A stretch of 64,000 bases of DNA from an uncultured Candidatus Saccharibacteria bacterium. GTDB taxonomy: Bacteria; Patescibacteriota; Minisyncoccia; Phycocordibacterales; PALSA-1337. Positions 24,901-46,949 of the stretch are shown here, piece after piece. The translations under genes and the position numbers were made by a program. The notes below the pieces were generated by a model. It worked only from the letters and a program-made list of their open reading frames with translations. It had not been told where the DNA came from and made no database searches. The stretch covers positions 4,824 to 68,823 of the forward strand of contig CAZBVQ010000003.1 of NCBI GenBank assembly GCA_964495685.1, in the 5' to 3' direction. How positions within the stretch are numbered: position 1 is the first letter of the stretch; every line of letters starts with the position of its first letter.

Positions 24901-24914
24901 CATACACTACAGAA

Positions 24915-24941: not shown

Positions 24942-24992
24942 GTTGAGAGGGGTTGATTTTCGGTGGGGAAGTGGTAGGGTGTTGGGTGAATT

Positions 24993-25367: not shown

Positions 25368-25431
25368 CTGCTGTCCAGTTTCAGGATCAATTTCACGCCA
25401 AGGCGACCCCTTGGCTTTTTTGTACTCGAAT

Positions 25432-25947: not shown

Positions 25948-25953
25948 GGATTA

Positions 25954-26586: not shown

Positions 26587-26626
26587 GAGGGTAAATCAAA
26601 ACGTAAAAATCAAAATTCAAAAATAA

Positions 26627-27463
26627 TCACAACGCAATCTTGAGGCCAGTGATGGCATCCATGGGATTATACTGCTTCGTGAGGTTTTCTACCACTTGGT
26701 CAGCAAACTCTTTGTCCATCTTTTCGGCTTTCTCGAATGCATTATCAGGGAGCTCGAGTCGGACTGGTGCATGTTCATGCTCACGACGCATGATTTCTTC
26801 GGCGCCAGCATAGTGGTTGCTATAAATGTGGGCATTTGAAATAGAGTGAGAGTAAATACCTGGTCTGACTCCCAATTTTTGGGCAAGGATACATTGGAGG
26901 AGCGCAAATCCGGCGACATCAGCAGGGGTGCCGAGTATGACGTCGTTTGAGCGAACAATATTGTGTAGATGGAGACGTCCCCCGATGATGTTGACCGTGA
27001 ATGTGTAGGGACACGGCACGTTCTTCTTTTTTGCTAGGGACAAGCCATCTTGGGCAGGATCCCATGTCACGATGACGCCCTGTCGTGAGCTCGGTTCTTT
27101 CTGGAGAAGGTCGATGAGTAGGGCGATTTGATCACGACCAAAATGCTTGCGCCAGCGATATCCGTAGGCGACTGTCACTACGTCGTTGGGGTTGGTGAAA
27201 AGATCCCAGATCTTGGTGTAATCGCGCAAAAAAATCTCAGGCTTGCGTGCACCAGAGAGAAACCAGACTTGCTCTGCGACGAACATCTTGATGGGAATTT
27301 TGCGGAGTGTGAGGATAGGGAAGCCGTCCTTCTCAATGTCGGTGGTGAAATGCATACCAGGAATGGCCTTTGTGTCATAGCCAGTGCGCTCACTGAACTC
27401 ATGAATGCCGGTGGTCATAATATCACTCACCATCTTTTTGTATATCTCGTCAAACGTTGTCAT
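26627..27463 (-). CDS. thymidylate synthase (ThyA) family enzyme with Asp at the Asn177-equivalent substrate-specificity position (predicted pyrimidine-C5 (hydroxy)methylase acting on dCMP)
   Basis: VWFLSG, catalytic Cys in VPCPYTF (aligns to PCH), RSNDVILGTPADVAGFALL (aligns to RSCDVFLGLPFNIASYALL), HIYSNH. Asp182 codon at 26918-26920. Confidence 0.8.
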   Translation of the reverse strand: MTTFDEIYKKMVSDIMTTGIHEFSERTGYDTKAIPGMHFTTDIEKDGFPILTLRKIPIKMFVAEQVWFLSGARKPEIFLRDYTKIWDLFTNPNDVVTVAYGYRWRKHFGRDQIALLIDLLQKEPSSRQGVIVTWDPAQDGLSLAKKKNVPCPYTFTVNIIGGRLHLHNIVRSNDVILGTPADVAGFALLQCILAQKLGVRPGIYSHSISNAHIYSNHYAGAEEIMRREHEHAPVRLELPDNAFEKAEKMDKEFADQVVENLTKQYNPMDAITGLKIAL

Positions 27464-27532
27464 TGCCTGTTAATTATATATAATCAAGCTACGAATGAAC
27501 ATGTTGCCGATTGTGCGATTTCGTATCCAAAT

Positions 27533-28048
27533 ATGAAAATTGATTATCCATACCTTCCTGAAGGGAGAACCATCAAACATGTTCCTGTCACCAACGTTTT
27601 TATGGCTGAGGCTAAGCGAGTGAGGGCTGAACTTTCAACAGAGAAAAATTATCCGACTGGTGCAGTCATTGTGAAGGATTCCAAGATACTCGGTCGAGCA
27701 GGCAATCAGGCGGCACTCAAAAATAAAACCCTCCAAGAATTCCATCGTACAAAGTTGTGTCTGCGTAAAGTGTTCAAGATACCTTCGGGTCAAAAATATT
27801 GGGTCTGCCCAGGTTGTGCGAAATATCAACACCATGCTGAGTGGGGAGCGGTCCGAGATGCTATCAAGCGGATAGGAAATATTGCTGGTGCAGACTTGTA
27901 CCTATATGGCCACTGGTGGTGCTGCAAACCGTGCTGGAGGAGCATGATCGATGCGGGTGTTCGAGATGTGTATCTTGTCGAAGGAGCTTTCGAATTATTC
28001 GAAAAGCGATCGCATGTAGTAGCTGAGGCGACCAAGAACAATACATAA
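27533..28048 (+). CDS. dCMP/CMP deaminase (zinc-dependent, ComEB-like)
   Basis: HAE...PCxxC motifs (HAEWGAV; CCKPCWRSM). Start trimmed to the MKIDYPY Met; the longer ORF start is antisense to thyA. Confidence 0.75.
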   Translation: MKIDYPYLPEGRTIKHVPVTNVFMAEAKRVRAELSTEKNYPTGAVIVKDSKILGRAGNQAALKNKTLQEFHRTKLCLRKVFKIPSGQKYWVCPGCAKYQHHAEWGAVRDAIKRIGNIAGADLYLYGHWWCCKPCWRSMIDAGVRDVYLVEGAFELFEKRSHVVAEATKNNT

Positions 28049-28049
28049 T

Positions 28050-28469
28050 ATGAAACTTCTCATCAAAAAACTCAAGCCCGATGCCAAGTTGCCCTCATAC
28101 GCTCATCCAGGTGATGTTGGTTTGGATCTCTATTCACTAGAGGACAAACTGCTCAATCCTGGTGAGCGTCATATTTTTTTCGTGGGATTTGCCCTGGAAT
28201 TTCCGACCGGCTATGCTGCTATTGTGAAGGACAAAGGCGGTACTTCGAAGAATGGTTTGCATACAGCCGGTGGGGTGTACGATGCGGGGTATCGTGGTGA
28301 ATATAACGTCAATCTGGTGAATCTGAGTGACAAACCATATCAAGTCCATACAGGTGATAAGATCGCCCAGCTCGTTATTTTCCCAGTCGCTATTGCTGAG
28401 CTCGAAGAAGTGTCGGCTTTGAATGATTCATCGCGTGGAGAGGGACGATTCGGTAGTACGGGACGATAA
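28050..28469 (+). CDS. dut: dUTP pyrophosphatase
   Basis: Motifs GDVGLDL, GVYDAGYRGE, DKIAQLVI, RGEGRFGSTG. Confidence 0.85.
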   Translation: MKLLIKKLKPDAKLPSYAHPGDVGLDLYSLEDKLLNPGERHIFFVGFALEFPTGYAAIVKDKGGTSKNGLHTAGGVYDAGYRGEYNVNLVNLSDKPYQVHTGDKIAQLVIFPVAIAELEEVSALNDSSRGEGRFGSTGR

Positions 28470-28478
28470 TATATCATC

Positions 28479-29132
28479 ATGCTTTCACCATTCCTGCTGA
28501 CAAAAAGTAAACCGCCGTTCATCGTCATTGAAGGCGGTGAGGGCTCGGGTAAATCATCGGTCTTGATGGCGCTCAAAGAAGAGCTGGGTGATCGTATTTT
28601 CACCACCCGCGAGCCGGGTGGTTCGCCCTATGCCGAAGTTATCCGCGATGTGACTTTGAAAAATCCACTGGCCAAAGGGACTCCTGCCGAAACAACCCTC
28701 TGCCTCATGTTCGCATCACGTTTCGATAATACGAGCCGTTCTATAGTTCCTGCACTGAAGGCTGGTACGCCTGTCATCGCTGATCGTTTCGATGCTTCTT
28801 CATTTGCGTACAATGTAGGTGCCCAATCTCGCGGCGCCCTCGAAGGGTTGTTCTGGAAACTTCGTGAACGTCTCGAAGTCAAACCGGACCTCTATATTTT
28901 CTTTGATGTTGATCCCCGTGAAGGTCTCCGCCGCGCTCAGTCGCGCAACCAATCATTGTTGCAGGGCAAACAATATGACCATTTCGATGATCGAGAGGTC
29001 GAGTTCCACGAAAAAGTCAGAGAAGGATACATGAAATTTTTCCAGAAAGTGCCGCACATGATCATTGATGCCAATCAGCCGCTCGATGAGGTCAAAAAGG
29101 CGTTCCGAGAGGAGATTCTTGCTAGAATTTAG
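28479..29132 (+). CDS. tmk: thymidylate kinase
   Basis: P-loop IVIEGGEGSGKSS, then TREPGG...DRF. Confidence 0.9.
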   Translation: MLSPFLLTKSKPPFIVIEGGEGSGKSSVLMALKEELGDRIFTTREPGGSPYAEVIRDVTLKNPLAKGTPAETTLCLMFASRFDNTSRSIVPALKAGTPVIADRFDASSFAYNVGAQSRGALEGLFWKLRERLEVKPDLYIFFDVDPREGLRRAQSRNQSLLQGKQYDHFDDREVEFHEKVREGYMKFFQKVPHMIIDANQPLDEVKKAFREEILARI

Positions 29133-29239
29133 TGGGGATATCTGAGGTGTTGACAAGGTTGTGGGGGAGGAGTAAGGTAGTGCGTAGGTTGCTCTACAGG
29201 CTATTACGTGGAGTGATAAAACGGCCTCACAAGCCACAT

Positions 29240-29455
29240 GTGGACTCTAATGTTCACAAAAAATGGGCGTGTGAGAGGGTTTGAATTCAAGGCCACAAAA
29301 AAACTTTCGCGGCTGAGAAGTACACAATTCTCTCCACCCCAGTTCTTTCCACCGCGCTCCGTCGCAGTGGTCGTTCCGAGGGTCTTTGCCGAGAGGCATA
29401 CCCCGTTTATGGTGGGGTCCGTCGTTGCCCAGGTGGGTGGCGACGGACTTTTTTG
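29240..29455 (+). promoter_or_regulatory. structured non-coding leader or small RNA ending in a strong intrinsic terminator (gtccgtcg-N16-cgacggac-TTTTTT at 29417-29455), upstream of glyA
   Basis: tmk ends at 29132, so the terminator 320 nt downstream is not its own. An upstream tccgtcgc copy (29344) can compete for the terminator's 3' arm. The ORFs here are not protein-like. Confidence 0.3.
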
Positions 29456-29613
29456 TTGCCCAGATTTTCTTTCGTGCTAGAATGCGAATACGACTAACTA
29501 ACATGCTTACCACAACCTACAAATCAACGTGGTCTTCATTTGCATAATTACGGTGAATTACCTGCGGTGTGATTCGGTTCGTGGTTCATTATTCACCATT
29601 CACTATTCATTCT

Positions 29614-30810
29614 ATGAAAGACACACAGATCAAAAAACTCATCGATGCTGAGAAGAAGCGTCAAAAGAGCGTCATCAATCTTATCGCCTCAGAGAACGTT
29701 GTTTCATCAGATGTACTCGAAGCGCTCGGTTCGGAATTGACCAACAAGTACGCAGAAGGGTATCCGCGTGCACGTTATTATGGCGGCAACCAAGTCGTCG
29801 ACAAGATCGAAGAGCTTTGCAAAGAGCGCGCACTCACATTATTCGGCCTTTCGGCAGATGAATGGCATGTCAATGTCCAGCCTCTGTCAGGGTCACCAGC
29901 CAATCTGGCTGTATATGTCGCTCTAGTCCCTCAAGGTGGCAAGATTATGGGTATGTCACTCGATCATGGTGGTCATCTCACTCACGGTCACAAAGTTTCG
30001 GCTACGGGCAAATTCTGGACCCAGGTACCGTATGGTCTCGACAAAGATACTGAGCTCATCAATTACGGGGCACTCAAGGAGCTCGCTCTTCGAGAGAGGC
30101 CAGCCATCATCGTCGGTGGCTACACGGCGTATACGCGTGTCGTTGATTTCAAGAAATTGCGCGAAATAGCTGACGCATGCGGAGCGTTGCTCATGATCGA
30201 CATGTCTCATTTCGCTGGTCTCGTCGCAGGCAAGGCTTATCCATCACCATTCGCGTACGCTGATGTGGTCACCACAACTGTACACAAGACACTCCGTGGT
30301 CCTCGTAGCGCACTTATTTTTTCCAAGAAAGATACGCGTGATCTTCCCAAGAAAATAGACAAAGCAGTTTTCCCGGGATTGCAGGGAGGCCCACACCTCA
30401 ATCAGATTGCCGCTGTCGCTGTGGCGCTCAAAGAAGCTGCCGCTCCCGCATTCAAGAAATATGCAGTGCAGGTCAAGAAGAACGCTGCAGTACTTGCCCA
30501 AGAATTGAGCAACAAAGGATGGAAAATTATTTCCGGAGGCACAGACTCACATCTGGTGCTTGTCGATACTTGGATGGGGGGCCAGAAAAATGCCAAGGGT
30601 GCCGGGGCCATTCCTGGCAAGATCGCTAGTGATGCACTTGAGAAGGCCGGCATCATTGTAAACAAGAACGCTATTCCTTTTGATGCTCGTCCGCCGGCAG
30701 ATCCTTCCGGTATCCGTCTCGGTTCAGCCGCAGAGACGACGAGGGGTAAAAAAGAAAAAGATTTCAAGAAAATCGCTGAGAAGATAGATGCGGTGCTCAA
30801 AAGGCTGTGA
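29614..30810 (+). CDS. glyA: serine hydroxymethyltransferase
   Basis: KRQKSVINLIASENVVSSDVLEALGSELTNKYAEGYP and PLP-Lys region. Start at the MKDTQIK Met. Confidence 0.9.
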   Translation: MKDTQIKKLIDAEKKRQKSVINLIASENVVSSDVLEALGSELTNKYAEGYPRARYYGGNQVVDKIEELCKERALTLFGLSADEWHVNVQPLSGSPANLAVYVALVPQGGKIMGMSLDHGGHLTHGHKVSATGKFWTQVPYGLDKDTELINYGALKELALRERPAIIVGGYTAYTRVVDFKKLREIADACGALLMIDMSHFAGLVAGKAYPSPFAYADVVTTTVHKTLRGPRSALIFSKKDTRDLPKKIDKAVFPGLQGGPHLNQIAAVAVALKEAAAPAFKKYAVQVKKNAAVLAQELSNKGWKIISGGTDSHLVLVDTWMGGQKNAKGAGAIPGKIASDALEKAGIIVNKNAIPFDARPPADPSGIRLGSAAETTRGKKEKDFKKIAEKIDAVLKRL

Positions 30811-32410: not shown

Positions 32411-32562
32411 TGTGCGATTGTGTTTCCGTTGCTGTTTCCCCATACCCTATTTCCCATACTCACACGAGCACGAGTGGTCTGGATTCGAAATTGACCATAA
32501 CACGATTATCACATAAAAGCAAGCCCTTCGTGCTTATCCTGCCTTTCTGCTACAATCTAACC

Positions 32563-34242
32563 ATGAAACAACAGATTCAGGTGGTATTCGAAAAAGCCTT
32601 GCAAAACCTCGATATTGCAGGGTCTTCTTTCCGTCTGGAATACCCAGAGAACCCTGAGCATGGCGATTTCTCATGTAATGTAGCCATGGTCAATGCCAAG
32701 AAACTTGGCATGGCTCCCAAAGTTCTTGCCGAGAAAGTGGTCGCCGAGATCGGCAAAGGGAATTCTGATTTTATTGCATCAGCTACTGTGGCTGGCCCTG
32801 GATTCATCAACATTACGATCAAGAGCACTGTGTTCACAGAGAATATTATTTCAGTCGCGCAAGGTGATGGGGAATATGGATGGAACAAGAACGATGCGGA
32901 CAAGAAAGTCATGGTTGAATATACTGACCCCAATCCATTCAAAGTGCTTCATATCGGTCACCTGATGTCCAACGCCATTGGTGAATCTATTTCTCGTCTC
33001 GTCCAATCTGCGGGTGCGGAGGTCAAGCGTGCCAACTGGCAAGGCGATGTCGGTCCGCATGTCGCAAAAGCTATTTGGGGAGCTCTTCATCTCAATGTTC
33101 CTGACAAACATGGCGCCGAATTCTGGGGCAAGGCCTACACACATGGTGCGCTGGCGTACGAAGATGATGCCGCTGCCAAGAAAGAGGTCGATGAGATCAA
33201 TAAGAAAGTCTATTCACGCACCGATGATCAGATCAACAAGCTCTATGATCAAGGTAGGAAAGAGAGTTTGGAGGCATTCGAAGTCATGTACGCCAAGCTC
33301 GGCACGAAATTCGACAATTACTTCTTCGAAGGTACTGAGGGCAGGAATGGTGAGCCGATTGTCCGCGAATATCTGAAGAAAGGTGTATTCCAGGAAAGTG
33401 AAGGAGCGATTGTATTCAAAGGTGAAGATCATGGGTTGCACACGCGTGTCTTCATGACCTCGCAGGGACTCCCGACATATGAGACCAAGGAGCTTGGTTT
33501 GAATGCTGAGAAATTCAAGCTCTATCCCGATCTGGCAGAATCGATCATCATTACCGCCAATGAACAAAGTGATTATTTCCGTGTGCTCCTGAAGGTCATG
33601 GAGCTGGTCATGCCGAATGTGGCTGCCAAGACCAAACATATGAGTCATGGCATGATGCGTTTTGCTTCGGGCAAAATGTCATCTCGCAAAGGTAATGTTA
33701 TTAGTGCCGAGGCGCTCATCGATGATATTCGTTCGTTGGTCACGGAGAAGATCGCCGACCGTGAATTTTCCGCTACACAGAAGGATGAAATCGCTGACGC
33801 GGTAGCCATTGGCGCTATCAAGTATACGATTTTGCGCCAGGCGGTCGGTAGCGATGTTATCTTCGATTCAGCCTCCTCTATCTCATTCGAAGGTGACTCG
33901 GGACCATATCTGCAGTATGCAGCAGTGAGGGCGGGTTCGATCTTGGAGAAAGGAAAGAAGGAGGGCAAAATCGTCGCTCCAGAAGAGGTGACTATGCTCG
34001 AAAGACTTATTTCAAGATTCCCGGATATCGTCGAGCGAGCACGAGCAGAATATGCGCCGCAACATATCGCAAGTTATCTCATGGCGCTCGCAGGTGAGTT
34101 CAATGCGTATTATGCCAATCATCAGATCGTCGACGACGCTGATCCGCTCTCACCATATCGTGTGGCGCTGACCAAGGCATTCAGGACGGTCATGATCAAT
34201 GGATTGTGGATTCTCGGTATCAAAGTTCCGGAGAGGATGTAG
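32563..34242 (+). CDS. argS: arginyl-tRNA synthetase
   Basis: HIGH motif (LHIGHLMSNAIGE), the N-terminal add-1 domain, and the characteristic C-terminal Met. Confidence 0.9.
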   Translation: MKQQIQVVFEKALQNLDIAGSSFRLEYPENPEHGDFSCNVAMVNAKKLGMAPKVLAEKVVAEIGKGNSDFIASATVAGPGFINITIKSTVFTENIISVAQGDGEYGWNKNDADKKVMVEYTDPNPFKVLHIGHLMSNAIGESISRLVQSAGAEVKRANWQGDVGPHVAKAIWGALHLNVPDKHGAEFWGKAYTHGALAYEDDAAAKKEVDEINKKVYSRTDDQINKLYDQGRKESLEAFEVMYAKLGTKFDNYFFEGTEGRNGEPIVREYLKKGVFQESEGAIVFKGEDHGLHTRVFMTSQGLPTYETKELGLNAEKFKLYPDLAESIIITANEQSDYFRVLLKVMELVMPNVAAKTKHMSHGMMRFASGKMSSRKGNVISAEALIDDIRSLVTEKIADREFSATQKDEIADAVAIGAIKYTILRQAVGSDVIFDSASSISFEGDSGPYLQYAAVRAGSILEKGKKEGKIVAPEEVTMLERLISRFPDIVERARAEYAPQHIASYLMALAGEFNAYYANHQIVDDADPLSPYRVALTKAFRTVMINGLWILGIKVPERM

Positions 34243-34313: not shown

Positions 34314-34715
34314 ATGAAGCCAAATGTTCAGGTTCTGCGACAGGCTTATTGTTTTTTTACAGACACACGGTACGATCCCTCACTACGACTTGGGGCTGAA
34401 ATCCCTCCGAAGGGATACAATTTCTCCATACTCAATCATGACGGTTTGCGTGTTGAACTCGTGATTGGAGTTCCCGAGTGGGGGAAATGTATCCACTCGG
34501 CGCAATTGCGAGTTTTCCAACCAGGTGAAGGGCCAGGTTCTTGGCCCGGTAAAATTCTGGCAGTGTGTGATGCGGTCGACGATCCAGATCGGGACGTGTT
34601 GGCGGATGTGTTTTATGCAGGAAGCAACGACCCTGACCGCGCACTTCTATGTCAACGGCTCCGTGAGGATATTGGTGCCGCAGTGGCCAGGGCCCGGTCA
34701 CTTCTTGTTGTTTGA
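34314..34715 (+). CDS. hypothetical protein; weak
   Basis: 133-aa ORF. The overlapping minus-strand ORF 34432-35436 is antisense to ileS and rejected. Confidence 0.3.
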   Translation: MKPNVQVLRQAYCFFTDTRYDPSLRLGAEIPPKGYNFSILNHDGLRVELVIGVPEWGKCIHSAQLRVFQPGEGPGSWPGKILAVCDAVDDPDRDVLADVFYAGSNDPDRALLCQRLREDIGAAVARARSLLVV

Positions 34716-34842: not shown

Positions 34843-37800
34843 ATGACTGACCCTATCAACCCAGAACAAAAAGCTATCACCAAATCTCCTCATGCTGAGC
34901 GCGAGGAGCGTATTCTTGCCCGCTGGAAAGAGAAGGGCATTTTCGAGCAGACACTCAAGCAGACTGAGGGCAAGAAAGAATTTATTTTCTATGAAGGTCC
35001 GCCAACTGCCAATGGTCGTCCTGGTATTCATCATCTCGAAGCACGCGCTTTCAAGGACGCGATTCCGCGTTACAAAACCATGCAAGGATTCCACGTGCGT
35101 CGCAAAGGAGGATGGGATACACATGGTCTGCCAGTCGAAATCCAAGTTGAGAAGGAGTTGGGCCTCAAGTCCAAGAAGGAAGTCGAGTCTTACGGCATCG
35201 AGCGTTTCAATGAGAAGTGCAAAGAAAGTGTCTGGAAATATGTCCATGAATGGGAAGGCTTCACTGAGCGCATGGGGTATTGGGTTGATCTCAAAGATCC
35301 GTACATTACCTACAAGTCTTCGTACATCGAGTCTTTGTGGAATATCATGAAGACAGTCGACAAGAAGGGATTGCTCTACAAGGATTACAAAGTCGTACCC
35401 TGGTGTCCGCGCTGTGGCACTGGTCTTTCGTCGCATGAATTGGCGCAGGGCTATCAGGACGTTAAGGATTTGGCGGTGACGGTGAAGTTCAAGGTCACAA
35501 ACGGAAAAGAAAAACTGGGCTCCACAGATGATATATATTTGCTTGCATGGACAACTACACCATGGACCTTACCAGGGAACGTTGGGTTAGCTGTTGGAAA
35601 AAAACAAAAAGGAATTACTTACAAACTGGTCTTTCTTGAACCGGACATTGCCAAAGTTGTTATCGGCAAAGGACAATCTGGTCAGTATGAATCCCCAAAC
35701 GGTTTTTTTGCAGAAGAAGTTGAAAAATTTAATAAAGAACATAAAGGAAAAGCATATCTCGTAACATCCCAATATAACTTTTCTGAAAAATTAAAGCCCC
35801 CATTTCCTATTAAAGAAAATCTTCTCCTAACAGATCTTACCGAGAATCAACTAATCGGCCTCACCTACGAACCCCTCTATTCGTTTTTGAAAGACAACAT
35901 TTCTGGTGCCGAAAAAGAAAAACTTTCCAATGCATACAAAGTATATGCGGCTGATTTTGTCACGACGACCGATGGTACTGGGATAGTTCACACTGCGGTT
36001 ATGTATGGTCAGGAGGATTTTGAGTTGGGAACACAGGTTGGTTTGCCGAAATATCACCTCGTCAATGATGATGGAACCTTCAAGAAAGAGGCCGGATTCC
36101 TTGCAGGCAGATTCGTGAAAGATGAAGCCGTCGCTATCGACATCATCAAAGATCTCGCCAGTCGCCCAACAGGCAGCTTGTTGTTCCACAAAGAGAAGCA
36201 CGAGCACAGCTACCCATTCTGTTGGCGTTGCAAGACTCCACTCATCTATTTTGCCCGCGATTCGTGGTATATCCGCATGTCTTCATTGCGTGACAACCTA
36301 GTCAAAGAGAATGAGAGCATCAACTGGGTGCCCGCCCATATCAAAGAAGGTCGTTTTGGTGAATGGCTCCGCGAAGTCAAAGATTGGGCCATTTCCCGCG
36401 AGCGTTACTGGGGAACACCACTTCCTGTCTGGGTTTGTGATGGGTGTCATGAGCGCAAAGTAGTTGGTTCTGTCGCCGAAATTGCACAGAAGTCGAAAAA
36501 CATGTATTTCGGTATTCGACACGGCGAAGCTGAGCAGAATGTACATAATATTCTGAACGGTGACCCAAGTAAGCACTATCATTTGACTGAGAAGGGCAAG
36601 AAAGAGGTTACGGATTCCGTTAAGTCATTCAAACAGAAGATTGATGTTATTTACGCCTCGCCATTGCTTCGTACCAAGGAGACTGCCGAAATTGCGGCAG
36701 GTATTTTGGGCGTGCCGGCATCTTCCATTTTCTATGATGAACGTTTGCGTGAAATGGGCATGGGCGAGCTCGAAGGGAAGAATGTGAGCGAGCTTAACGG
36801 ATTGGTTGATGTTCCAGAAAAACTCTTCACTACCTCGGTCAGAGGTGTTGAGACACGACTGGAGATCAAGAGACGCGTTGGCACATTCATCGAAGAGATT
36901 GAACAGAAGCATGTTGGTAAGACTATTTTGGTTGTCAGTCATGATAGTCCATTGTGGATGCTCGAGAGTGCTGCCACAGGCCTCGATACCACCCAGGCTC
37001 TTGCACTCAAAGCAGGTAAGTCATTTTTCATGGATAATGCCGAAGTTAGAAAAATTGATTACTCGATAGTTCCACACAACGCTGACTTCGAACTTGATCT
37101 GCATCGCCCATACATTGATACAGTGAAGATTCCGTGCGCATGTGGCGGGACAATGACACGTGTCAAAGAAGTTATGGATGTGTGGTTTGATTCTGGCGCT
37201 ATGCCTTTTGCGCAGGATCATTATCCGTTCGAACACAAAGAACTAGTAGATAGTGGTTTGTTCAAGAAAGCTCACGGCTATCCCGCTGATTTTATTTCTG
37301 AGGCCATCGATCAGACACGTGGCTGGTTCTATACATTGCACGCTATTGGTGTGTTGATGGGCAAGGGCAAGGCATTCAAGAACGTTATCTGTCTCGGTCA
37401 CATTCTCGATGGAGAGGGCAAGAAAATGTCGAAATCTCTCGGCAATATCGTCGACCCATGGAGCATGATGGACAAATACGGCGCTGACGCACTGCGTTTC
37501 TGGATGTACTCTGTCAATCAGCCGGGGGATTCGAAAAACTTTGATGAGAAGACAGTCGATGAAATGGTCAAAAAAGTATTCAATTTAGCGGCAAATGTGT
37601 TGTCGTTCTATCAGATGTATGCGGAGAAGTCGGCAGTTGCAAGTAACACGTTGCAAGTCACATCGCGTAACATTTTGGATCGATGGATTATTTCGAGACT
37701 TGATCAGGTGATCGAGACAGTCACCAAAGGCTTGGACTCATATGTATTTCTTGAGCCGACGCGTTCGGTACGTGATTTTATTGCAGACCTCTCACAATGG

Positions 37801-38493
37801 TATTTACGCCGCTCGCGTGACCGATTCAAGTCAGAAGATGTCCAAGACAAACAAGCTGCACTAGCGACGACCCGCTACATTCTAGTAACACTCGCCAAAG
37901 TTATGGCGCCGTTCACACCATTTTTTGCAGATTATCTGTACCAGGAAGCAGGTGGAGATCTCGAGAGTGTTCATTTGGAGAAGTGGCCGGTCGCAGGGAA
38001 GATCGATACGCAGCTCATCACAGATATGGCACACGTCCGCACCGCATGCTCCAAAGGTTTGGAGGCTCGTACACGTGCCAAGATCAACGTACGTCAGCCG
38101 CTGGCAAAGTTGTATATAAAGACCGGTATTGCCGACAAACTCTCACCCGAACTTCTCGGTCTGATCGAAGATGAAGTTAATGTCAAGGGAGTCGCTATCA
38201 GCGTGTCTATTGATTCCGAGGTGCAGCTCGATACCGTCATCACTCCCGCTCTCAAAGAAGAGGGCATGGTCCGTGAATTGATGCGCCTTATTCAGGATCT
38301 CCGCAAAGCCAAGGGTCTCAGTGTGGGTGATCGGGCAGTCTTGAATGTGGAGACAGATGGCGCGGGCAGGAAAGTTATCGACACCAATGCTACACAAATC
38401 AAAACCGCCTGCGGTATTTCTGAAATCCGCTACGGCACTGTTGCTGGTGACACGACCATGATCGCAGAGATGCCGTTCAAGCTTGGCTTGTAA
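34843..38493 (+). CDS. ileS: isoleucyl-tRNA synthetase (type 2) with an inserted histidine-phosphatase (PGAM-like) domain (~aa 545-745)
   Basis: PPTANGRPGIHH (HIGH), KMSKSLGN and DWAISRERYWGTPLPVWVCDGC; then the insert FGIRHGEAEQN...ILVVSHDSPLWM; then HRPYIDTVKIPCACGGTMTRVKEVMDVWFDSGAMPF. Confidence 0.95.
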   Translation: MTDPINPEQKAITKSPHAEREERILARWKEKGIFEQTLKQTEGKKEFIFYEGPPTANGRPGIHHLEARAFKDAIPRYKTMQGFHVRRKGGWDTHGLPVEIQVEKELGLKSKKEVESYGIERFNEKCKESVWKYVHEWEGFTERMGYWVDLKDPYITYKSSYIESLWNIMKTVDKKGLLYKDYKVVPWCPRCGTGLSSHELAQGYQDVKDLAVTVKFKVTNGKEKLGSTDDIYLLAWTTTPWTLPGNVGLAVGKKQKGITYKLVFLEPDIAKVVIGKGQSGQYESPNGFFAEEVEKFNKEHKGKAYLVTSQYNFSEKLKPPFPIKENLLLTDLTENQLIGLTYEPLYSFLKDNISGAEKEKLSNAYKVYAADFVTTTDGTGIVHTAVMYGQEDFELGTQVGLPKYHLVNDDGTFKKEAGFLAGRFVKDEAVAIDIIKDLASRPTGSLLFHKEKHEHSYPFCWRCKTPLIYFARDSWYIRMSSLRDNLVKENESINWVPAHIKEGRFGEWLREVKDWAISRERYWGTPLPVWVCDGCHERKVVGSVAEIAQKSKNMYFGIRHGEAEQNVHNILNGDPSKHYHLTEKGKKEVTDSVKSFKQKIDVIYASPLLRTKETAEIAAGILGVPASSIFYDERLREMGMGELEGKNVSELNGLVDVPEKLFTTSVRGVETRLEIKRRVGTFIEEIEQKHVGKTILVVSHDSPLWMLESAATGLDTTQALALKAGKSFFMDNAEVRKIDYSIVPHNADFELDLHRPYIDTVKIPCACGGTMTRVKEVMDVWFDSGAMPFAQDHYPFEHKELVDSGLFKKAHGYPADFISEAIDQTRGWFYTLHAIGVLMGKGKAFKNVICLGHILDGEGKKMSKSLGNIVDPWSMMDKYGADALRFWMYSVNQPGDSKNFDEKTVDEMVKKVFNLAANVLSFYQMYAEKSAVASNTLQVTSRNILDRWIISRLDQVIETVTKGLDSYVFLEPTRSVRDFIADLSQWYLRRSRDRFKSEDVQDKQAALATTRYILVTLAKVMAPFTPFFADYLYQEAGGDLESVHLEKWPVAGKIDTQLITDMAHVRTACSKGLEARTRAKINVRQPLAKLYIKTGIADKLSPELLGLIEDEVNVKGVAISVSIDSEVQLDTVITPALKEEGMVRELMRLIQDLRKAKGLSVGDRAVLNVETDGAGRKVIDTNATQIKTACGISEIRYGTVAGDTTMIAEMPFKLGL

Positions 38494-38494: not shown

Positions 38495-39115
38495 ATGTAC
38501 GCTATCCATACAACTCCTGGATTTGTCATCGAGTCCCGGCCATCTGGTGAGGCGGGGAGAGTACTTTCTATATTCACTCGCGACATGGGACTGGTCCGCG
38601 CGGTGGCACAGGGGATACGGCTCGAAAAATCGAAGCTCCGTTACCATGTGCAGGAGTATTCATTTGGGGAGTTTTCGTTCGTGAGGGGGAAGGAGTATTG
38701 GAGACTTACAAGTGCGAATGGCATTGATGTAGCCAGATCCGATGCGAATACACGAAGTATGCGAATGACGCGAATAGAATCACAAAACACAGGCCAAGAA
38801 CTTATTGGTCGCATTGCACTGCTTCTTCGTCGACTTCTCCACGGTGAAGAGGCGTATTCAGAATTATTTGCTCATATTCAAGCAGCTTCTGAACTACTGG
38901 CTTCTTCGGGTTTGAATACTGAAGAACTCCAAACACTGGAATCACTTATTGTTTTTCGTATCGTGCGGGCTCTGGGCTACGTCGGTACAGACAAAGATAT
39001 TGATGACCAGATTGTGGATGGTCCCATATCAATCGAATTGGTGCGTACGAGTGCGGGGAAGAGGGTACTCCTCAATAAACATATTAATAAAGCACTCAGG
39101 GAAAGTCAGTTGTAA
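38495..39115 (+). CDS. recO: DNA repair protein RecO
   Basis: N-terminal OB-fold pattern GFVIESRPSGEAGRVLSIFTRDMGLVRAVAQGIR...L.P and C-terminal LESLIVFRIVRALGY. The ATG lies 1 nt after the ileS stop. Confidence 0.65.
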   Translation: MYAIHTTPGFVIESRPSGEAGRVLSIFTRDMGLVRAVAQGIRLEKSKLRYHVQEYSFGEFSFVRGKEYWRLTSANGIDVARSDANTRSMRMTRIESQNTGQELIGRIALLLRRLLHGEEAYSELFAHIQAASELLASSGLNTEELQTLESLIVFRIVRALGYVGTDKDIDDQIVDGPISIELVRTSAGKRVLLNKHINKALRESQL

Positions 39116-41080: not shown

Positions 41081-41531
41081 TGACTTTTGTGTTCGAGGGT
41101 GTTACATTGTTCACGAACTTGAAATGAGTCATACGGAGATTTCGTGTCGGCTGGGTAGTTCGTACGGCCGCACGTGTGCGCGCATACGCGCACTGTTCAC
41201 GAGGCGCGGTTCACGCGACCAGAGTCGCGTACCCGACGGCGCTCACTGGCTTGGTGTTGGCGCCCTTCGGCTCGCCTCGTTCACGCCGGCTCGCCCCTTC
41301 GGTTTACCGATTCCGGGGGGCGAGTCCGGCCATGGCTCATATTTATTGACACTTTTGACTCGTGGTCAGCCGCCGACGCGCGTTTGGTCATCTGCTCCAG
41401 CGCGCCATCGACCAGAGTCACTTGGCACCCTCATGCCTCCCGCAACCTTTCCTCCGTTGCGACCGGGTGTGATGGGTGCCAAGATCGTTCTTTTGAACTG
41501 CTGCGGAGATGCCCTTCGCGGCATTTTTATT
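41081..41531 (+). ncRNA. candidate structured RNA: GC-rich (~60%) ~415-nt unit with its own promoter (TTGACT-N17-TACATT at 41081-41109) and terminator (~41505-41531)
   Basis: Multiple cUUCGg tetraloop hairpins, the palindrome GTGCGCGcataCGCGCAC, three GTTCACG repeats, and a 10-bp stem cttggcaccc/gggtgccaag. The only ORFs are Arg/Pro-rich nonsense. glyS has its own TGgTATACAAT -10 immediately downstream. Confidence 0.3.
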
Positions 41532-41559
41532 TTCCATACTTTTGGTATACAATGCCCCT

Positions 41560-42894
41560 ATGTCAAAAAAAGCCCCAGAATCAGTGTCCGACAAGGTCAT
41601 GGAAAACCTCATTGCTCTGTGCAAGCGTAGAGGCTTCATATTCCAGGGATCTGAGATATATGGAGGCCTGGCCGGTACCTGGGACTACGCTCCTCTCGGC
41701 CTGATGCTCAAGAACAACATCCGCAAGCTCTGGTGGAAGCGTTTCGTCGATGATCGTGATGATATGTACGGTGTCGATGCGGCCCTGCTCATGAATCAGC
41801 GCACTTGGGAGGCGAGTGGTCACGTCAGCGGCTTCGCTGATCCGATGGTGGAGTGTGCCAAGTGTAAACATCGTTTTCGTGTCGACCAGCTCGCTGATTC
41901 CAAGAAATGTCCCGACTGTGGCGGCAAGCTCGGAGAAGCGCAGCAGTTCAACATGATGTTCAAGACGCACGTCGGTGCCAACCAAGACTCAGCATCTATT
42001 TCATATTTGCGTCCCGAGACAGCACAAGGCATGTTCGTCAATTTCAAAAATATCCTCGACACCTTCCATCCCAAGCTACCGTTCGGTATGGCTCAGATAG
42101 GTAAGGCCTTCAGGAATGAGATTGCACCACGCGACTTCCTCTTCCGTGCTCGCGAGTTTGAGCAGATGGAGATTGAGTATTTCGTTAATCCGAAGGATTG
42201 GGAGAAGACATTCGAGCACTTCCACAAGGAAATGCACGCATTCATTGCTGATGTCGGTCTGACTGCTTCTAAAGTAAGTGACTATGAAGTGCCTGATGGT
42301 GATCGTGCTCATTATTCGAAGAGGACGATCGACGTCGAGTTCGAATATCCTTTCGGTAAGAAAGAGCTGTATGGTCTGGCATATCGTACAGATTTTGACC
42401 TCAAGCAACACTCAGAATTCAGTAAGGTTGATCTGTCATATTTCGATGAAGAAACAAAAGAACGCTTCGTCCCACATTGTATCGAGCCATCATTTGGTCT
42501 TGATCGCACGGTCCTTGCGGTACTGACAGATGCGTATAGGGAAGACGATCTCGGTGGTGAAAAGCGCACCTATCTTAAACTTGCTCCGTCAGTTGCGCCA
42601 GTGAAGATTGCCGTATTTCCATTGCTAAAAAATAAACCACAACTGGTTGCCAAGGCGCACGAATTGTTCAAGGTGCTCAAGAAAGAATTTGGTGCAGTAG
42701 TGTTTGATGATAATGGCAATATTGGTAAGCGTTATCGTCGTCAGGATGAGATTGGTACTCCGTTCTGTGTGACTGTTGATTTCGATACGATCGAGAAAGG
42801 TGCGGGGGTGACCATTCGTGATCGAGATACTGGTGAGCAAGAAAGGGTTGCGGAAGGGGAGTTGGCTGCATTCCTGCACAAGAAAATAGGTTAA
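41560..42894 (+). CDS. glyS: glycyl-tRNA synthetase (dimeric class II, GlyQS/eukaryote-archaeal type)
   Basis: GFIFQGSEIYGGLAGTWDYAPLG, zinc knuckle CAKCKHRF...CPDCGG, class II motifs. Leaderless start 7 nt after TACAAT. Confidence 0.9.
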   Translation: MSKKAPESVSDKVMENLIALCKRRGFIFQGSEIYGGLAGTWDYAPLGLMLKNNIRKLWWKRFVDDRDDMYGVDAALLMNQRTWEASGHVSGFADPMVECAKCKHRFRVDQLADSKKCPDCGGKLGEAQQFNMMFKTHVGANQDSASISYLRPETAQGMFVNFKNILDTFHPKLPFGMAQIGKAFRNEIAPRDFLFRAREFEQMEIEYFVNPKDWEKTFEHFHKEMHAFIADVGLTASKVSDYEVPDGDRAHYSKRTIDVEFEYPFGKKELYGLAYRTDFDLKQHSEFSKVDLSYFDEETKERFVPHCIEPSFGLDRTVLAVLTDAYREDDLGGEKRTYLKLAPSVAPVKIAVFPLLKNKPQLVAKAHELFKVLKKEFGAVVFDDNGNIGKRYRRQDEIGTPFCVTVDFDTIEKGAGVTIRDRDTGEQERVAEGELAAFLHKKIG

Positions 42895-45506: not shown

Positions 45507-46949
45507 ATGAGTAAAACGCCTTTCTACATCACTACGACACTCCCGTACGTCAATTCTGATCCTCATATCGGCTTTGCCATGGAGATTATTCGTGCAGACG
45601 TCATAGCTCGAGCCAAGAAGCTTGAAGGTTTCGACGTATTTTTCAATACGGGCACTGACGAACATGGCGTGAAGATATATCAGAAGGCACTTAGTGGGCA
45701 AGAAGATACTCAAGCATTCGTCGATCGCTACGCGGCCAAGTTCAAGGAGTTACAGAATATTCTCGGACTTTCTCCTGATATACATTTCATACGCACAACT
45801 GATGACAAGCACGTCGCTGCGGCACAAGAATTTTGGCGTATCTGTGACAAGAATGGCTTCATTTACAAGAAAGTATACAAGACCAAGTATTGCTCTGGTT
45901 GCGAATTGGAAAAGACTGACACTGAGCTCAATGATGACGGGCGTTGCTTCATTCACCCAACCATCGACCTCATGCTCATTGATGAAGAGAATTATTTCTT
46001 CAAATTCAGCGCCTTTCAGCAGAAGCTTCTCGATCTGTACGCTTCAAATCCGAAATTGATCGTTCCCGATTTTCGTTTCAATGAGATCAAGGCCTTCGTC
46101 GAACGTGGACTCGAAGATTTCAGCATTTCACGTCTTGCCACCAAGATGCCTTGGGGCGTGCCAGTGCCTGGTGACAAGGATCATGTCATGTATGTCTGGT
46201 TCGATGCCTTGGTGAGCTATATTTCTACTCTCGGTTGGCCTGAAGATACCAAAAATTTCGAAAAATTCTGGCAGAATGGGACGCCGGTGCAATATTGTGG
46301 CAAGGACAATCTTCGTCAGCAATCAGCAATGTGGCAGGCCATGCTCATGTCGGTCGGTTTACCGCCGACTCACACTATTGTGATTGATGGTTTCGTGACA
46401 GGTGAGGGAGGGGTCAAGATGTCCAAGTCGTTGGGCAACACTATCGATCCGCTCGATATCGTCAAGGAATATGGTGTCGATGCTCTGCGCTATTATGTCT
46501 GCCGTGAACTCAGTCCTTTTGAAGATAGCCCATTTACTATGGATAAGTTCAAAGAGGCTTACAATGCTCATCTGGCAAATGGGGTCGGCAATTTGACGAG
46601 TCGTGTCATGAAAATGGCGACTACCAATCTTGCGAGTGCTCCGGAGATCCCTTCGAAGAGTGTTCCCGCAGCATTCACTGATGCTTTGGCAGGTTTCAAC
46701 ATTCAAGCTGCAGCTCATGTCGTTTGGGAGCATATTTCAGCTGCTGACCGCATCATTCAAGAAAAAGAGCCTTTCAAACTAGTAAAGACTGACAAAGAGG
46801 CCGCCATCGAGATCATCAAGGATTTGTGTGTACGACTCTACACTATTGGAGACATGCTCGAACCGATTATGCCACAGACGTCTGAATTGCTCAAAAAACT
46901 GGTGAAGGAACACAAGATGCCAGAGCAACCTCTCTTCATGAGGAAATAG
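45507..46949 (+). CDS. metG: methionyl-tRNA synthetase (short form)
   Basis: TTTLPYVNSDPHIGF (HIGH region), zinc knuckle CSGCELE...C, KMSKSLGN. Confidence 0.9.
   Translation: MSKTPFYITTTLPYVNSDPHIGFAMEIIRADVIARAKKLEGFDVFFNTGTDEHGVKIYQKALSGQEDTQAFVDRYAAKFKELQNILGLSPDIHFIRTTDDKHVAAAQEFWRICDKNGFIYKKVYKTKYCSGCELEKTDTELNDDGRCFIHPTIDLMLIDEENYFFKFSAFQQKLLDLYASNPKLIVPDFRFNEIKAFVERGLEDFSISRLATKMPWGVPVPGDKDHVMYVWFDALVSYISTLGWPEDTKNFEKFWQNGTPVQYCGKDNLRQQSAMWQAMLMSVGLPPTHTIVIDGFVTGEGGVKMSKSLGNTIDPLDIVKEYGVDALRYYVCRELSPFEDSPFTMDKFKEAYNAHLANGVGNLTSRVMKMATTNLASAPEIPSKSVPAAFTDALAGFNIQAAAHVVWEHISAADRIIQEKEPFKLVKTDKEAAIEIIKDLCVRLYTIGDMLEPIMPQTSELLKKLVKEHKMPEQPLFMRK

What the first reader, a model, noticed from the sequence alone, without database searches (positions are those of the whole stretch)
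36475..37085. Isoleucyl-tRNA synthetase carries an inserted, apparently complete histidine-phosphatase (PGAM-like) domain
The 1216-aa IleRS is collinear with type-2 IleRS such as the Thermus enzyme across the HIGH, CP/editing, KMSKS and anticodon-binding regions. Between the WVCDGC zinc knuckle and HRPYID...CACGG...DVWFDSG, where Thermus IleRS has a ~25-aa linker, this protein has a ~200-aa in-frame insertion.

The insert starts FGIRHGEAEQN (Arg559-His560; codons 36517-36522). This is the RHG nucleophile motif of the histidine phosphatase / phosphoglycerate mutase superfamily. It ends ...ILVVSHDSPLWM (His700; 36940-36942), the second catalytic His. That is the full signature of a branch-1 histidine phosphatase.

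I know of no described aaRS with an embedded phosphatase domain. It could provide a new proofreading, tRNA-end repair, (p)ppApp/adenylate-handling or regulatory activity. This is the most striking protein-level anomaly in the window.
Basis: partly seen in the sequence, partly recalled or inferred. Interest (0 to 1): 0.8.

Follow-up and report, generated by a model that had tools for sequence, protein, structure and literature searches.

The report
Phosphatase domain embedded inside isoleucyl-tRNA synthetase
An essential protein-synthesis enzyme (isoleucyl-tRNA synthetase) of a large group of tiny uncultured bacteria carries a complete, apparently active phosphatase inside it; the phosphatase derives from a neighbouring gene, its substrate is unknown, and no such enzyme pairing was found in the literature searched.

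Summary

It is not an assembly artefact. The same architecture occurs in all 120 best homologues and in 80 of 80 sampled species genomes (at least 546 hits), all Paceibacteria/Parcubacteria. The catalytic Arg-His…Arg…Glu…His set is kept in 97 of 97 embedded copies.

New here: in related genomes the phosphatase is a free-standing gene wedged between argS and an insert-less ileS (29 of 36 well-flanked cases; genes abut). The same subfamily is also fused to ArgRS, inserted into ValRS (up to four copies), and inserted at other IleRS sites.

It is therefore a dedicated partner of class Ia synthetases that one clade internalised. The substrate is unknown. Fold and size point to a small phosphomonoester, not a mutase or protein-phosphatase role. 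Nothing was found in the literature searched. Novelty: new variant of a known kind. Interest: 0.72.

The parts
34843..38493 (+). ileS: 1216-aa type-2 isoleucyl-tRNA synthetase with the embedded phosphatase
   Evidence: ORF; TIGR00392 874 bits vs cutoff 621; Foldseek top hits are PmIleRS2 8c8u/v/w, TMt 0.75-0.79
36490..37071 (+). Inserted domain, aa 550-743: branch-1 histidine phosphatase
36517..36522 (+). Arg559-His560 of the RHG motif (phospho-acceptor His)
   Evidence: 65/65 invariant; 97/97 in embedded copies from independent genomes
36538..36540 (+). Asn566 (RHGxxxxN)
   Evidence: 65/65; 94 of 97 N, 3 Q
36670..36672 (+). Arg610, second phosphate-binding Arg (SPxxRTxET motif)
   Evidence: 65/65; 97/97
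36751..36753 (+). Glu637, presumed proton donor (RLRE motif)
   Evidence: 65/65; 95 E and 2 D of 97
36940..36942 (+). His700, second catalytic His
   Evidence: 65/65; 97/97
36433..36447 (+). Zinc-knuckle half A (VCDGC; C532, C535), upstream of the insert
   Evidence: Both Cys 65/65
37135..37149 (+). Zinc-knuckle half B (CACGG; C765, C767), downstream of the insert
   Evidence: Both Cys 65/65
35020..35034 (+). P-G-I-H-H: non-canonical GXHH version of the class I HIGH motif
   Evidence: 63-65 of 65 conserved; GXHH = mupirocin hyper-resistant IleRS2 type (PMC10485003)
35548..35580 (+). Thr-rich editing motif WTTTPWTLPGN (CP1 editing domain)
   Evidence: 65/65 invariant
35974..36018 (+). Editing-site motif GTGIVHTAVMYGQED
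   Evidence: G, T, G, V, H and D392 invariant
37423..37437 (+). KMSKS loop
   Evidence: 62-65 of 65
32530..34242 (+). argS (570 aa), upstream operon partner
   Evidence: Called gene with Arg_tRNA_synt_N, tRNA-synt_1d and DALR_1; ArgRS directly upstream in 46 of 63 fused loci
34314..34715 (+). 133-aa ORF in the argS-ileS slot that holds the free-standing phosphatase gene in unfused genomes
   Evidence: No Pfam hit, no similarity to the phosphatase HMM, not conserved in 80 related loci
38495..39115 (+). recO-like gene, conserved downstream neighbour
   Evidence: RecO_N; present in 62 of 80 fused loci and in unfused L084

Best explanation
This is a genuine bifunctional protein. It is a fully equipped type-2 (GXHH) isoleucyl-tRNA synthetase whose connective-peptide zinc hairpin carries, at its tip, a complete ~194-aa branch-1 histidine phosphatase with an intact catalytic set.

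Origin (shown): in related Paceibacteria the same phosphatase subfamily is a free-standing ~190-aa gene packed between argS and ileS, with the three genes abutting. In one large clade a copy moved into ileS and the free-standing gene was lost. Elsewhere it fused to the C-terminus of ArgRS, entered ValRS, or entered other IleRS loops, sometimes in two to four copies.

Function (inferred): conserved gene order together with repeated fusion implies that the phosphatase works together with class Ia synthetases, probably in physical association with them, rather than serving anything specific to isoleucine. Its fold, size and cap place it with small-substrate phosphomonoesterases (PspA, PhoE, GpgP, CobC). 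I therefore think it most likely uses His560 to hydrolyse a small phosphomonoester tied to the charging cycle. My favoured candidate is a nucleotide-type group: a 2'/3'-phosphate on the tRNA acceptor end that would block charging, or an adenine-nucleotide by-product.

I put about 0.9 on the anatomy, origin and active-enzyme parts, about 0.55 on 'functionally coupled to aminoacylation', and about 0.2-0.3 on the specific nucleotide/tRNA-end substrate. The overall confidence of 0.55 refers to the statement up to and including functional coupling.
For: Anatomy.

Host enzyme intact: GIHH, KMSKS, both editing motifs and all zinc Cys are invariant or nearly so.

Not an artefact and clade-wide: 120 of 120 top homologues have PF00133+PF00300; the identical protein is on 7 contigs; at least 546 species genomes are hit, and 80 of 80 sampled loci have N-insert-C at the same site.

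Selection on catalysis: the insert is only 44% identical to the reference against 73-75% for the IleRS body, yet R559, H560, N566, R610, E637 and H700 are 65/65. R, H, R and H are 97/97 in independent embedded copies. Insert length is held at 192-205 aa.

Operon origin: L084/L085 have argS, then a 189-aa His_Phos gene, then a 931-aa insert-less ileS, with gaps of 3 and 1 nt and the same recO/DUF11 synteny as the window. P0176 is a second case. In a metagenome sample, 29 of 36 well-flanked free-standing copies are argS-X-ileS and none lacks both neighbours; median junctions are 11 and 20.5 nt; 37 of 37 complete downstream IleRS lack the insert. Only 1 of 80 fused loci keeps a free-standing copy. 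ArgRS lies directly upstream in 46 of 63 fused loci, 14 of them with a gap under 70 nt.

Recurrence: ValRS P0249 (948 bits vs 704), P0245 and P0133 with four copies; ArgRS P0257 (405 vs 262), P0271 and P0272; alternative-site IleRS P0150, P0142 and P0256, the last from Peregrinibacteria. All copies keep the catalytic residues wherever the sequence covers them.

Against: No substrate was tested, and none can be read from the sequence. Every NCBIfam equivalog cutoff (dPGM, PspA, CobC, SixA, GpmB) is missed.

The insertion sites are diverse and copies can be tandem. That argues for tethering or co-expression rather than a precise geometric hand-off between active sites.

The embedded domains are near-neutral (pI 6.5), so there is no generic RNA-binding surface.

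Three of the seven free-standing representatives whose context I looked up individually lie away from any synthetase gene.

The metagenome sample was retrieved with operon-type queries and is therefore biased towards that subfamily.

Co-divergence of insert and host is significant but modest (Mantel r 0.34, Spearman 0.12), and the domain tree is unresolved.

Model coordinates and PAE were not available, so the orientation of the phosphatase pocket relative to the synthetic site is unknown.
Confidence: 0.55

Rival explanations
1. Metabolic hitch-hiker. The phosphatase performs an ordinary small-molecule dephosphorylation unrelated to translation (for example a PspA-, HFP-, CobC- or GpgP-like step). 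It merely shares an operon with argS/ileS. In these streamlined genomes, with overlapping genes, it became fused or inserted because that was tolerated and guarantees constitutive co-expression.
For: The closest folds are all metabolic phosphatases. The ArgRS fusion is what a simple stop-codon loss between abutting genes would give, and it is rare at 3 of 120 clusters. Some free-standing relatives sit in unrelated contexts. Varied insertion sites and tandem copies show no geometric constraint.
Against: Internal insertion into an essential enzyme happened at five or more sites in three synthetases. The argS-X-ileS order is conserved across lineages whose IleRS are only 44-48% identical. The free-standing copy is lost once the embedded one exists, in 79 of 80 loci. 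By established principle, conserved gene order plus repeated fusion predicts interacting or functionally linked proteins.
Confidence: 0.28
2. Hidden glycolytic enzyme. The embedded domain is the cofactor-dependent phosphoglycerate mutase that surveys report as missing from several Parcubacteria clades.
Against: All dPGM equivalog cutoffs are missed by a wide margin: NF038349 89 vs 225, TIGR01258 33 vs 81.7, NF010713 22 vs 305. Phosphatases outrank mutases in both fold searches. The ~200-aa size and short cap match PhoE/PspA. Four copies in one ValRS and fusion to ArgRS are hard to explain for a glycolytic mutase.
Confidence: 0.08
3. Protective protein phosphatase. The domain removes inhibitory phosphates that HipA/HipT-like toxin kinases place on class I synthetases, or otherwise regulates the synthetase by dephosphorylation.
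For: The association is restricted to class I synthetases in my sample. From established knowledge, HipA phosphorylates GltX and HipT phosphorylates TrpS, both class I enzymes, and the histidine phosphatase superfamily includes the protein phosphatases SixA, PGAM5 and Sts.
Confidence: 0.06
4. Non-catalytic module. The domain now serves only as a structural, tRNA-binding or allosteric sensor element.
For: aaRS insertions often act as RNA-binding or regulatory modules (general knowledge). The INS subdomain of IleRS2 binds the tRNA D-loop (bioRxiv 10.64898/2026.02.03.703510).
Against: The catalytic residues are invariant in 97 of 97 embedded copies while the rest of the domain has drifted to about 44% identity. 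The domain is near-neutral in charge.
Confidence: 0.03
5. Artefact or selfish element: a chimeric assembly, or an intein-like or mobile insertion that is removed from the mature protein.
For: None found.
Against: Independent assemblies and hundreds of species show the same junction. There is no compositional break. There is no Hint/intein domain. The junction residues are K/P/S at the start and an invariant Pro at +1, with no Cys/Ser/Thr nucleophile.
Confidence: 0.01

Closest known systems
Type-2 IleRS with the GXHH signature motif (Priestia megaterium IleRS2, PDB 8c8u/8c8v/8c8w; Thermus thermophilus 1ILE)
   Same: Collinear over the catalytic core, CP1 editing domain, both zinc sites, the KMSKS loop, the anticodon-binding domain and the C-terminal domains. 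phmmer E 2e-245; Foldseek TMt 0.75-0.79. The protein carries the swapped HIGH motif GIHH, which is described as giving mupirocin hyper-resistance.
   Different: It carries 194 extra residues forming an independent enzyme domain where PmIleRS2 has 2 residues (476-479). It also has about 44 extra residues in the editing-domain region. It misses the MupA/MupB exception cutoffs (779 and 766 bits vs 1900).
Small branch-1 histidine phosphatases: PspA (4ij5), PhoE/YhfR (1h2e, 1ebb), GpgP Rv2419c (4pz9, 6s2q), riboflavin-pathway HFP (9mmh), CobC (6e4b)
Free-standing 'histidine phosphatase family protein / PhoE' genes of Patescibacteria (e.g. P0158, P0397; Staskawiczbacteria P0462, P0495)
   Same: The direct unfused relatives: about 40% identical to the insert, same catalytic residues, located between argS and ileS in syntenic operons.
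   Different: They are separate polypeptides. They are strongly basic (pI about 9.7 against 6.5 for embedded copies). They carry a conserved VSSWPE motif. They have no described function.
Other catalytic domains attached to synthetases: CP1 editing domains, and NCBIfam NF040702 'isoleucine--tRNA ligase, N-acetyltransferase domain-containing'
   Same: These are precedents that class Ia synthetases, IleRS included, acquire extra catalytic domains by insertion or fusion (PMC13114784).
   Different: Those domains act on aminoacyl esters or amines. A phosphomonoesterase has no obvious substrate in the canonical reaction. This protein scores 313 bits against a cutoff of 1999 for NF040702, so it is not a member.
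   Same: A precedent for a phosphatase activity built into a tRNA 3'-end-handling enzyme and proposed to heal tRNA ends. It works like the favoured hypothesis.
   Different: It has an unrelated fold (HD metal-dependent) and a different host enzyme. No evidence here links the His_Phos domain to tRNA ends.

Membership tests
Isoleucyl-tRNA synthetase (class Ia; TIGR00392) | Score above the curated equivalog cutoff | tested here: met
   874 bits vs 621.4
Isoleucyl-tRNA synthetase (class Ia; TIGR00392) | Class I signature motifs HIGH and KMSKS | tested here: met
   KMSKS at aa 861-865 is 62-65 of 65 conserved. HIGH is present as the known variant GIHH, aa 61-64 (PMC10485003)
Isoleucyl-tRNA synthetase (class Ia; TIGR00392) | CP1 editing domain with the Thr-rich and GTGxVH...D motifs | tested here: met
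   WTTTPWT 65/65; G378, T379, G380, V382, H383 and D392 65/65
Isoleucyl-tRNA synthetase (class Ia; TIGR00392) | Isoleucylation of tRNA-Ile | not testable with these tools
   Requires an enzyme assay
IleRS2, GXHH (mupirocin hyper-resistant) subtype | First and third positions of HXGH swapped to GXHH in a type-2 IleRS | tested here: met
   P-G-I-H-H; the best PDB match is the GVHH mutant 8c8w; definition from PMC10485003
IleRS2, GXHH (mupirocin hyper-resistant) subtype | Millimolar Ki for mupirocin | not testable with these tools
   Biochemical property
MupA/MupB acquired mupirocin-resistance IleRS (NF000257, NF000258) | Score above the exception-model cutoff | tested here: not met
   766 and 779 bits vs 1900
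Histidine phosphatase superfamily, branch 1 (PF00300) | Pfam gathering threshold | tested here: met
   102.5 bits (106.9 for the insert alone) vs 21.7; profile positions 4-181 of 194
Histidine phosphatase superfamily, branch 1 (PF00300) | Catalytic core: RHG nucleophilic His, second Arg, Glu proton donor, second His | tested here: met
   R559, H560, R610, E637 and H700 invariant in 65/65. R, H, R and H are 97/97 and E637 is 95 E plus 2 D in independent copies
Histidine phosphatase superfamily, branch 1 (PF00300) | alpha/beta PGAM-like fold | tested here: met
Histidine phosphatase superfamily, branch 1 (PF00300) | Phosphomonoesterase or mutase activity through a phospho-His intermediate | not testable with these tools
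   Requires an enzyme assay and an H560A control
Cofactor-dependent phosphoglycerate mutase (dPGM) | Score above any dPGM equivalog or subfamily cutoff | tested here: not met
   Insert alone: NF038349 88.7 vs 225; TIGR01258 33 vs 81.7; NF010713 22 vs 305; NF002339 38 vs 316
PspA, CobC, SixA and GpmB equivalogs | Score above the equivalog cutoff | tested here: not met
   Insert alone: PspA 57.8 vs 350; CobC TIGR03162 67.8 vs 162.9; SixA 32.9 vs 74.5; GpmB 51.5 vs 261
Intein / Hint-domain insertion | Hint domain, a Cys/Ser N-terminal nucleophile, and a C-terminal HN followed by Cys/Ser/Thr | tested here: not met
   No Hint hit. The first insert residue is K/P/S and the residue after the insert is an invariant Pro; the PHN that follows is succeeded by A/S/H/P
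IleRS with GNAT domain (NF040702) | Score above the exception cutoff | tested here: not met
   313 bits vs 1999

The most novel reading that the evidence does not exclude
The phosphatase is a third catalytic activity of class Ia synthetases in CPR bacteria. It acts in cis or in complex on the tRNA acceptor end. It would remove a 2'/3'-phosphate or (pyro)phosphate left by ribonuclease damage or by tRNA-end-modifying toxins, so that healing and charging happen on one enzyme. This would be a previously unknown synthetase-linked tRNA repair or anti-toxin function, and it would explain the recurrent capture of the domain by IleRS, ValRS and ArgRS.
Probability: 0.15. Interest if true: 0.92.

Novelty: new variant of a known kind. 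Interest (0 to 1): 0.72.

Why it matters
Aminoacyl-tRNA synthetases are among the best-studied enzymes, and their added domains usually reveal biology such as editing, tRNA binding or signalling. Here an essential synthetase in hundreds of species of a major uncultured bacterial radiation carries a conserved, apparently active phosphatase for which the canonical charging reaction offers no substrate.

The link between phosphatase and synthetase is supported by three independent kinds of evidence: a conserved argS-X-ileS operon, internalisation into IleRS, and separate fusions to ArgRS and ValRS. That makes a concrete biochemical question directly testable with recombinant protein.

Whatever the answer, it would add to what is known about translation in CPR bacteria. 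Possible answers include tRNA-end healing, nucleotide product handling, a missing metabolic enzyme hidden inside a synthetase, or regulation. The finding also matters for annotation: metabolic surveys that assign one function per gene will miss this phosphatase. In addition, the host IleRS is of the GXHH type linked to mupirocin hyper-resistance.

Tried and rejected
1. Assembly chimera: rejected. The identical protein is on 7 contigs, and the same junction occurs in 120 of 120 homologues and 80 of 80 genome loci.

2. Intein or mobile element: rejected.

3. A second His_Phos paralogue in the window: none found. The 133-aa ORF in the argS-ileS slot is not a degraded phosphatase as far as HMMs can see, and it is not conserved elsewhere.

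4. Domain phylogeny to test single versus multiple origin: the NJ tree was unresolved, with distances of 0.5-0.7. Only local patterns were usable: the P0133 copies are mutual nearest neighbours, and the P0272 domain is nearest the operon-type free-standing copies.

5. Charge as a proxy for tRNA binding: inconclusive.

6. The first genome scan, with a divergent 27-sequence alignment, failed at pattern design. It was repeated with closer sequences.

7. Foldseek against afdb50 was unavailable.

8. Geometry of the phosphatase pocket relative to the synthetic site, the editing site and the tRNA: not measurable, because model coordinates and PAE are not exposed.

9. Literature: six searches for any description of an aaRS-phosphatase fusion found nothing. 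The search on Parcubacteria pyrophosphatase was uninformative.

10. Rfam found no leader or riboswitch near argS/ileS.

11. PPi hydrolysis as the role: considered and not favoured. Histidine phosphatases are phosphomonoesterases. From my own recollection, not checked here, many CPR bacteria use PPi-dependent enzymes. No test was possible.
Full report
**1. The observation**

The window contains a 1216-aa ORF at 34843-38493 on the + strand. It passes NCBI's curated isoleucine-tRNA ligase model (TIGR00392, 874 bits, cutoff 621.4). Pfam finds tRNA-synt_1 in two stretches, plus Anticodon_1 and DUF5915. Between the two tRNA-synt_1 stretches it finds His_Phos_1 (PF00300) at aa 558-740, with E 3.1e-29 and 102.5 bits against a gathering score of 21.7, covering profile positions 4-181 of 194.

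A residue-level alignment to Priestia megaterium IleRS2 (8c8w) runs to query 549 / target 476 and resumes at query 744 / target 479. Residues 550-743 (nt 36490-37071) are therefore a clean insertion that replaces two residues. GC content is continuous across the insert.

**2. Not an artefact, and not peculiar to this genome**

The identical protein is called on seven contigs, including independent Logan assemblies. All 120 best homologues carry PF00133 and PF00300 together. They are 58-72% identical and come from NCBI, JGI, ENA and Logan. Named ones are Patescibacteria, Paceibacterota, Parcubacteria and Taylorbacteria.

The named lineages are Wolfe-, Nomura-, Taylor-, Zambryski-, Adler-, Campbell-, Kaiser-, Vogel- and Yonathbacteria, plus Minisyncoccia. 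All 80 loci returned show IleRS-N, insert, IleRS-C at the same point when scored with HMMs I built from the family.

**3. Both enzymes look functional**

In 65 aligned homologues the following host motifs are invariant or nearly so:
- the GIHH signature
- KMSKS
- the Thr-rich and GTGxVH...D editing motifs
- both zinc sites, including the four Cys that flank the insert (C532, C535, C765, C767)

The insert evolves faster than its host. It is 44% identical to the reference on average, against 73-75% for the catalytic body. Its length is nevertheless held at 192-205 aa. R559, H560, N566, R610, E637 and H700 are 65/65.

In 97 embedded copies from independent genomes and metagenomes, R, H, R and H are 97/97, and the Glu is E (95) or D (2).

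AlphaFold2 models the insert as the most confident part of the full protein (pLDDT 93-97). Modelled alone it reaches pLDDT 95.8 and pTM 0.92.

It misses every NCBIfam equivalog cutoff, including all dPGM models. It is therefore a member of the superfamily but of no characterised subfamily.

**4. Where the insertion sits**

The PmIleRS2 catalytic core is given as residues 40-168 and 513-632 (PMC10485003). Position 476-479 therefore lies in the connective-peptide region: CP2 in that paper's nomenclature, and CP2/CP3 in the nomenclature of PMC11685878. The domain is mounted at the tip of the 4-Cys zinc hairpin on very short linkers. N553 and P744 are invariant. I could not measure the orientation of the phosphatase pocket because model coordinates are not exposed.

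**5. Origin: an operon neighbour**

A HMMER search of 1.84 billion representative proteins with the insert alone returned three kinds of hit: IleRS fusions, about 50 free-standing proteins of ~190-210 aa, and unexpected architectures.

Context look-ups showed that the free-standing protein P0158 lies between argS and a 931-aa insert-less ileS, with gaps of 3 and 1 nt. The recO and DUF11-protein genes follow downstream, exactly as in the window. P0176 is a second case, with argS overlapping the phosphatase gene by 4 nt.

I then scanned metagenome contigs with an alignment of such copies and classified the 80 best loci:

| Category | Loci |
|---|---|
| Free-standing | 61 |
| Embedded in IleRS | 18 |
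| Fused to ArgRS | 1 |

Of the 36 free-standing genes with at least 1.2 kb on both sides, 29 are argS-X-ileS, 4 have argS only, 3 have ileS only and none has neither. Junctions are tight: a median of 11 nt from the argS stop to the first aligned phosphatase residue, and 20.5 nt from the phosphatase stop to the first aligned IleRS residue. All 37 complete downstream IleRS lack the insert.

Conversely, in the 80 fused genome loci:
- ArgRS is directly upstream in 46 of the 63 loci with enough upstream sequence.
- In 14 of those the gap is under 70 nt, so the slot is empty.
- Only one locus (L074) still has a free-standing copy, and it is divergent.

The two states are thus complementary. The insert-less IleRS of L084 has a canonical HYGH motif and is 44-48% identical to the fused bodies, which are 66-79% identical to each other. 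The operon therefore predates the fused GXHH clade. A few GxHH-type IleRS without the insert but with the upstream gene also exist (5 of 29 that could be typed).

**6. The association recurs**

Curated models confirm the following:
- P0249 is a ValRS (948 bits vs 704) with the domain inserted after the RIPVWY motif, the homologous connective-peptide position.
- P0245 is another ValRS fusion.
- P0133 is a ValRS with four copies, one at a separate site and three in tandem.
- P0257 is an ArgRS (405 bits vs 262) with a C-terminal copy.
- P0150 (1419 aa; six cluster members on contigs up to 1.06 Mb), P0142 and P0256 (Candidatus Peregrinibacteria) are IleRS of the HYGH type with inserts at other sites (taxonomy and cluster sizes).

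The other IleRS sites are:
- the loop after WFESGSMPYA (query-equivalent 792-808)
- the boundary before the anticodon-binding helices (928-941)
- inside the second zinc knuckle

Every copy keeps the catalytic residues wherever the sequence covers those positions.

The ArgRS fusion is rare, at 3 of 120 clusters. It probably arose twice, because the P0272 domain is nearest the operon-type free-standing copies while P0257/P0271 are nearest different ones. The ValRS tandem copies are mutual nearest neighbours, which indicates duplication in place.

**7. What it most likely does**

Shown:
- a complete histidine-phosphatase domain under purifying selection on its catalytic residues
- embedded in a complete IleRS
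- derived from a gene that is almost always co-operonic with argS and ileS
- captured repeatedly by class Ia synthetases

Inferred: conserved gene order plus repeated fusion indicates a functional, probably physical, partnership with these synthetases. This rests on the established Rosetta-stone and gene-order principles. The fold indicates a small phosphomonoester substrate.

The partnership spans Ile, Val and Arg enzymes, so the substrate should be common to charging: tRNA ends or adenine nucleotides. I favour a nucleotide-type phosphate, for instance a 2'/3'-phosphate blocking the acceptor end. I give this only 0.2-0.3.

Against a precise hand-off between active sites are the varied insertion sites, the tandem copies and the near-neutral charge of embedded domains.

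**8. Rivals**

The main rival is a metabolic hitch-hiker retained for co-expression (0.28).

A 'hidden PGM' reading is prompted by the reported absence of PGM in some Parcubacteria (PMC7304191). It is weakened by the failed dPGM cutoffs, the fold ranking and the multi-copy ValRS architecture (0.08).

A protein-phosphatase or anti-kinase role (0.06) and a purely structural role (0.03) fit the data less well. Artefact and intein explanations are excluded.

**9. Comparison with what is known, and novelty**

The host is a member of IleRS2 of the GXHH type. The insert is a member of the branch-1 histidine phosphatase superfamily, closest in fold to PspA and PhoE, but a member of no characterised subfamily.

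Synthetases with extra catalytic domains are known: editing domains, and a GNAT-containing IleRS model in NCBIfam. A 2026 survey of domain insertions lists synthetases as frequent hosts (PMC13114784). However, six full-text searches found no description of a phosphatase in or beside a synthetase. Databases name these proteins only 'isoleucyl-tRNA synthetase', 'class I tRNA ligase family protein', 'histidine phosphatase family protein' or 'PhoE'.

I rate it a new variant of a known kind, with interest 0.72. It is real, ancient, widespread, directly testable and surprising to specialists, but its mechanism is not yet established.

Noticed in passing
P0249, P0245, P0133 (ValRS); P0257, P0271, P0272 (ArgRS); loci L090, L092-L171: The same histidine-phosphatase subfamily is inserted into ValRS at the homologous connective-peptide site. 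One ValRS has four copies. It is also fused to the C-terminus of ArgRS in 3 of 120 close ArgRS clusters.
   Followed up: partly
P0150 (L091:5001-9260), P0142, P0256/P0395: IleRS of the canonical HYGH type, with P0256 annotated as Peregrinibacteria, carry one to three phosphatase domains at other sites: after WFESGSMPYA, before the anticodon-binding helices, and inside the second zinc knuckle. These appear to be independent insertion events.
   Followed up: partly
L084:4303-9367; L085; L089; L092-L171: There is a conserved three-gene arrangement of argS, free-standing His_Phos and insert-less ileS, with abutting or overlapping genes. It is found in 29 of 36 well-flanked metagenome cases.
   Followed up: yes
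L074:2809-3453 and 4390-7995: One Paceibacterota genome keeps both a divergent free-standing phosphatase gene downstream of argS and the embedded copy in ileS. It may be an intermediate state.
   Followed up: partly
window 35020-35034: The IleRS has GIHH in place of the class I HXGH motif. GXHH is the swap reported to confer mupirocin hyper-resistance on IleRS2. It is conserved across the whole fused clade.
   Followed up: partly
window ~35611-35814 (aa ~257-324): A second, smaller peculiarity of the same protein: about 44 extra residues in the editing-domain region compared with PmIleRS2. The segment is low in GC (0.36-0.37), variable among homologues, and modelled with pLDDT below 50.
   Followed up: no
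window 34314-34715: A 133-aa ORF lies in the argS-ileS gap, where unfused genomes have the phosphatase gene. It has no Pfam hit, no similarity to the phosphatase, and is not conserved in any of 80 related loci. It may not be a real gene.
   Followed up: partly
window 32530-34242, 34843-38493, 41509-42891, 45507-46946: Four synthetase genes fall within 15 kb: ArgRS, IleRS, a class II enzyme with an HGTP anticodon domain, and a short 480-aa MetRS. Only IleRS carries the phosphatase.
   Followed up: no
window 21872-30810: A cluster of folate and thymidylate genes: FolD, a DHFR/RibD_C-like gene, dCTP deaminase, thymidylate synthase, thymidylate kinase and SHMT.
   Followed up: no
window 649-2977: Four tRNA genes. 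tRNA-Arg(CCG) and tRNA-His(GTG) encode their 3'-CCA, whereas tRNA-Val(TAC) and tRNA-Leu(GAG) do not, so a CCA-adding enzyme is needed.
   Followed up: no
alignment A6 (P0158, P0229, P0200, P0176, P0261, P0240, P0189): The operon-type free-standing phosphatases share a VSSWPE motif just after RHG..N and are strongly basic (median pI 9.7). Embedded copies lack the motif and are near-neutral (pI 6.5).
   Followed up: no
L007:4338-8724; L065; L079: L007 is a frameshift-ridden contig with an inverted partial duplicate of the fused gene at its end, probably assembly noise. L065 and L079 have an extra ~40-50 aa insertion in the C-terminal half of the fused IleRS.
   Followed up: no
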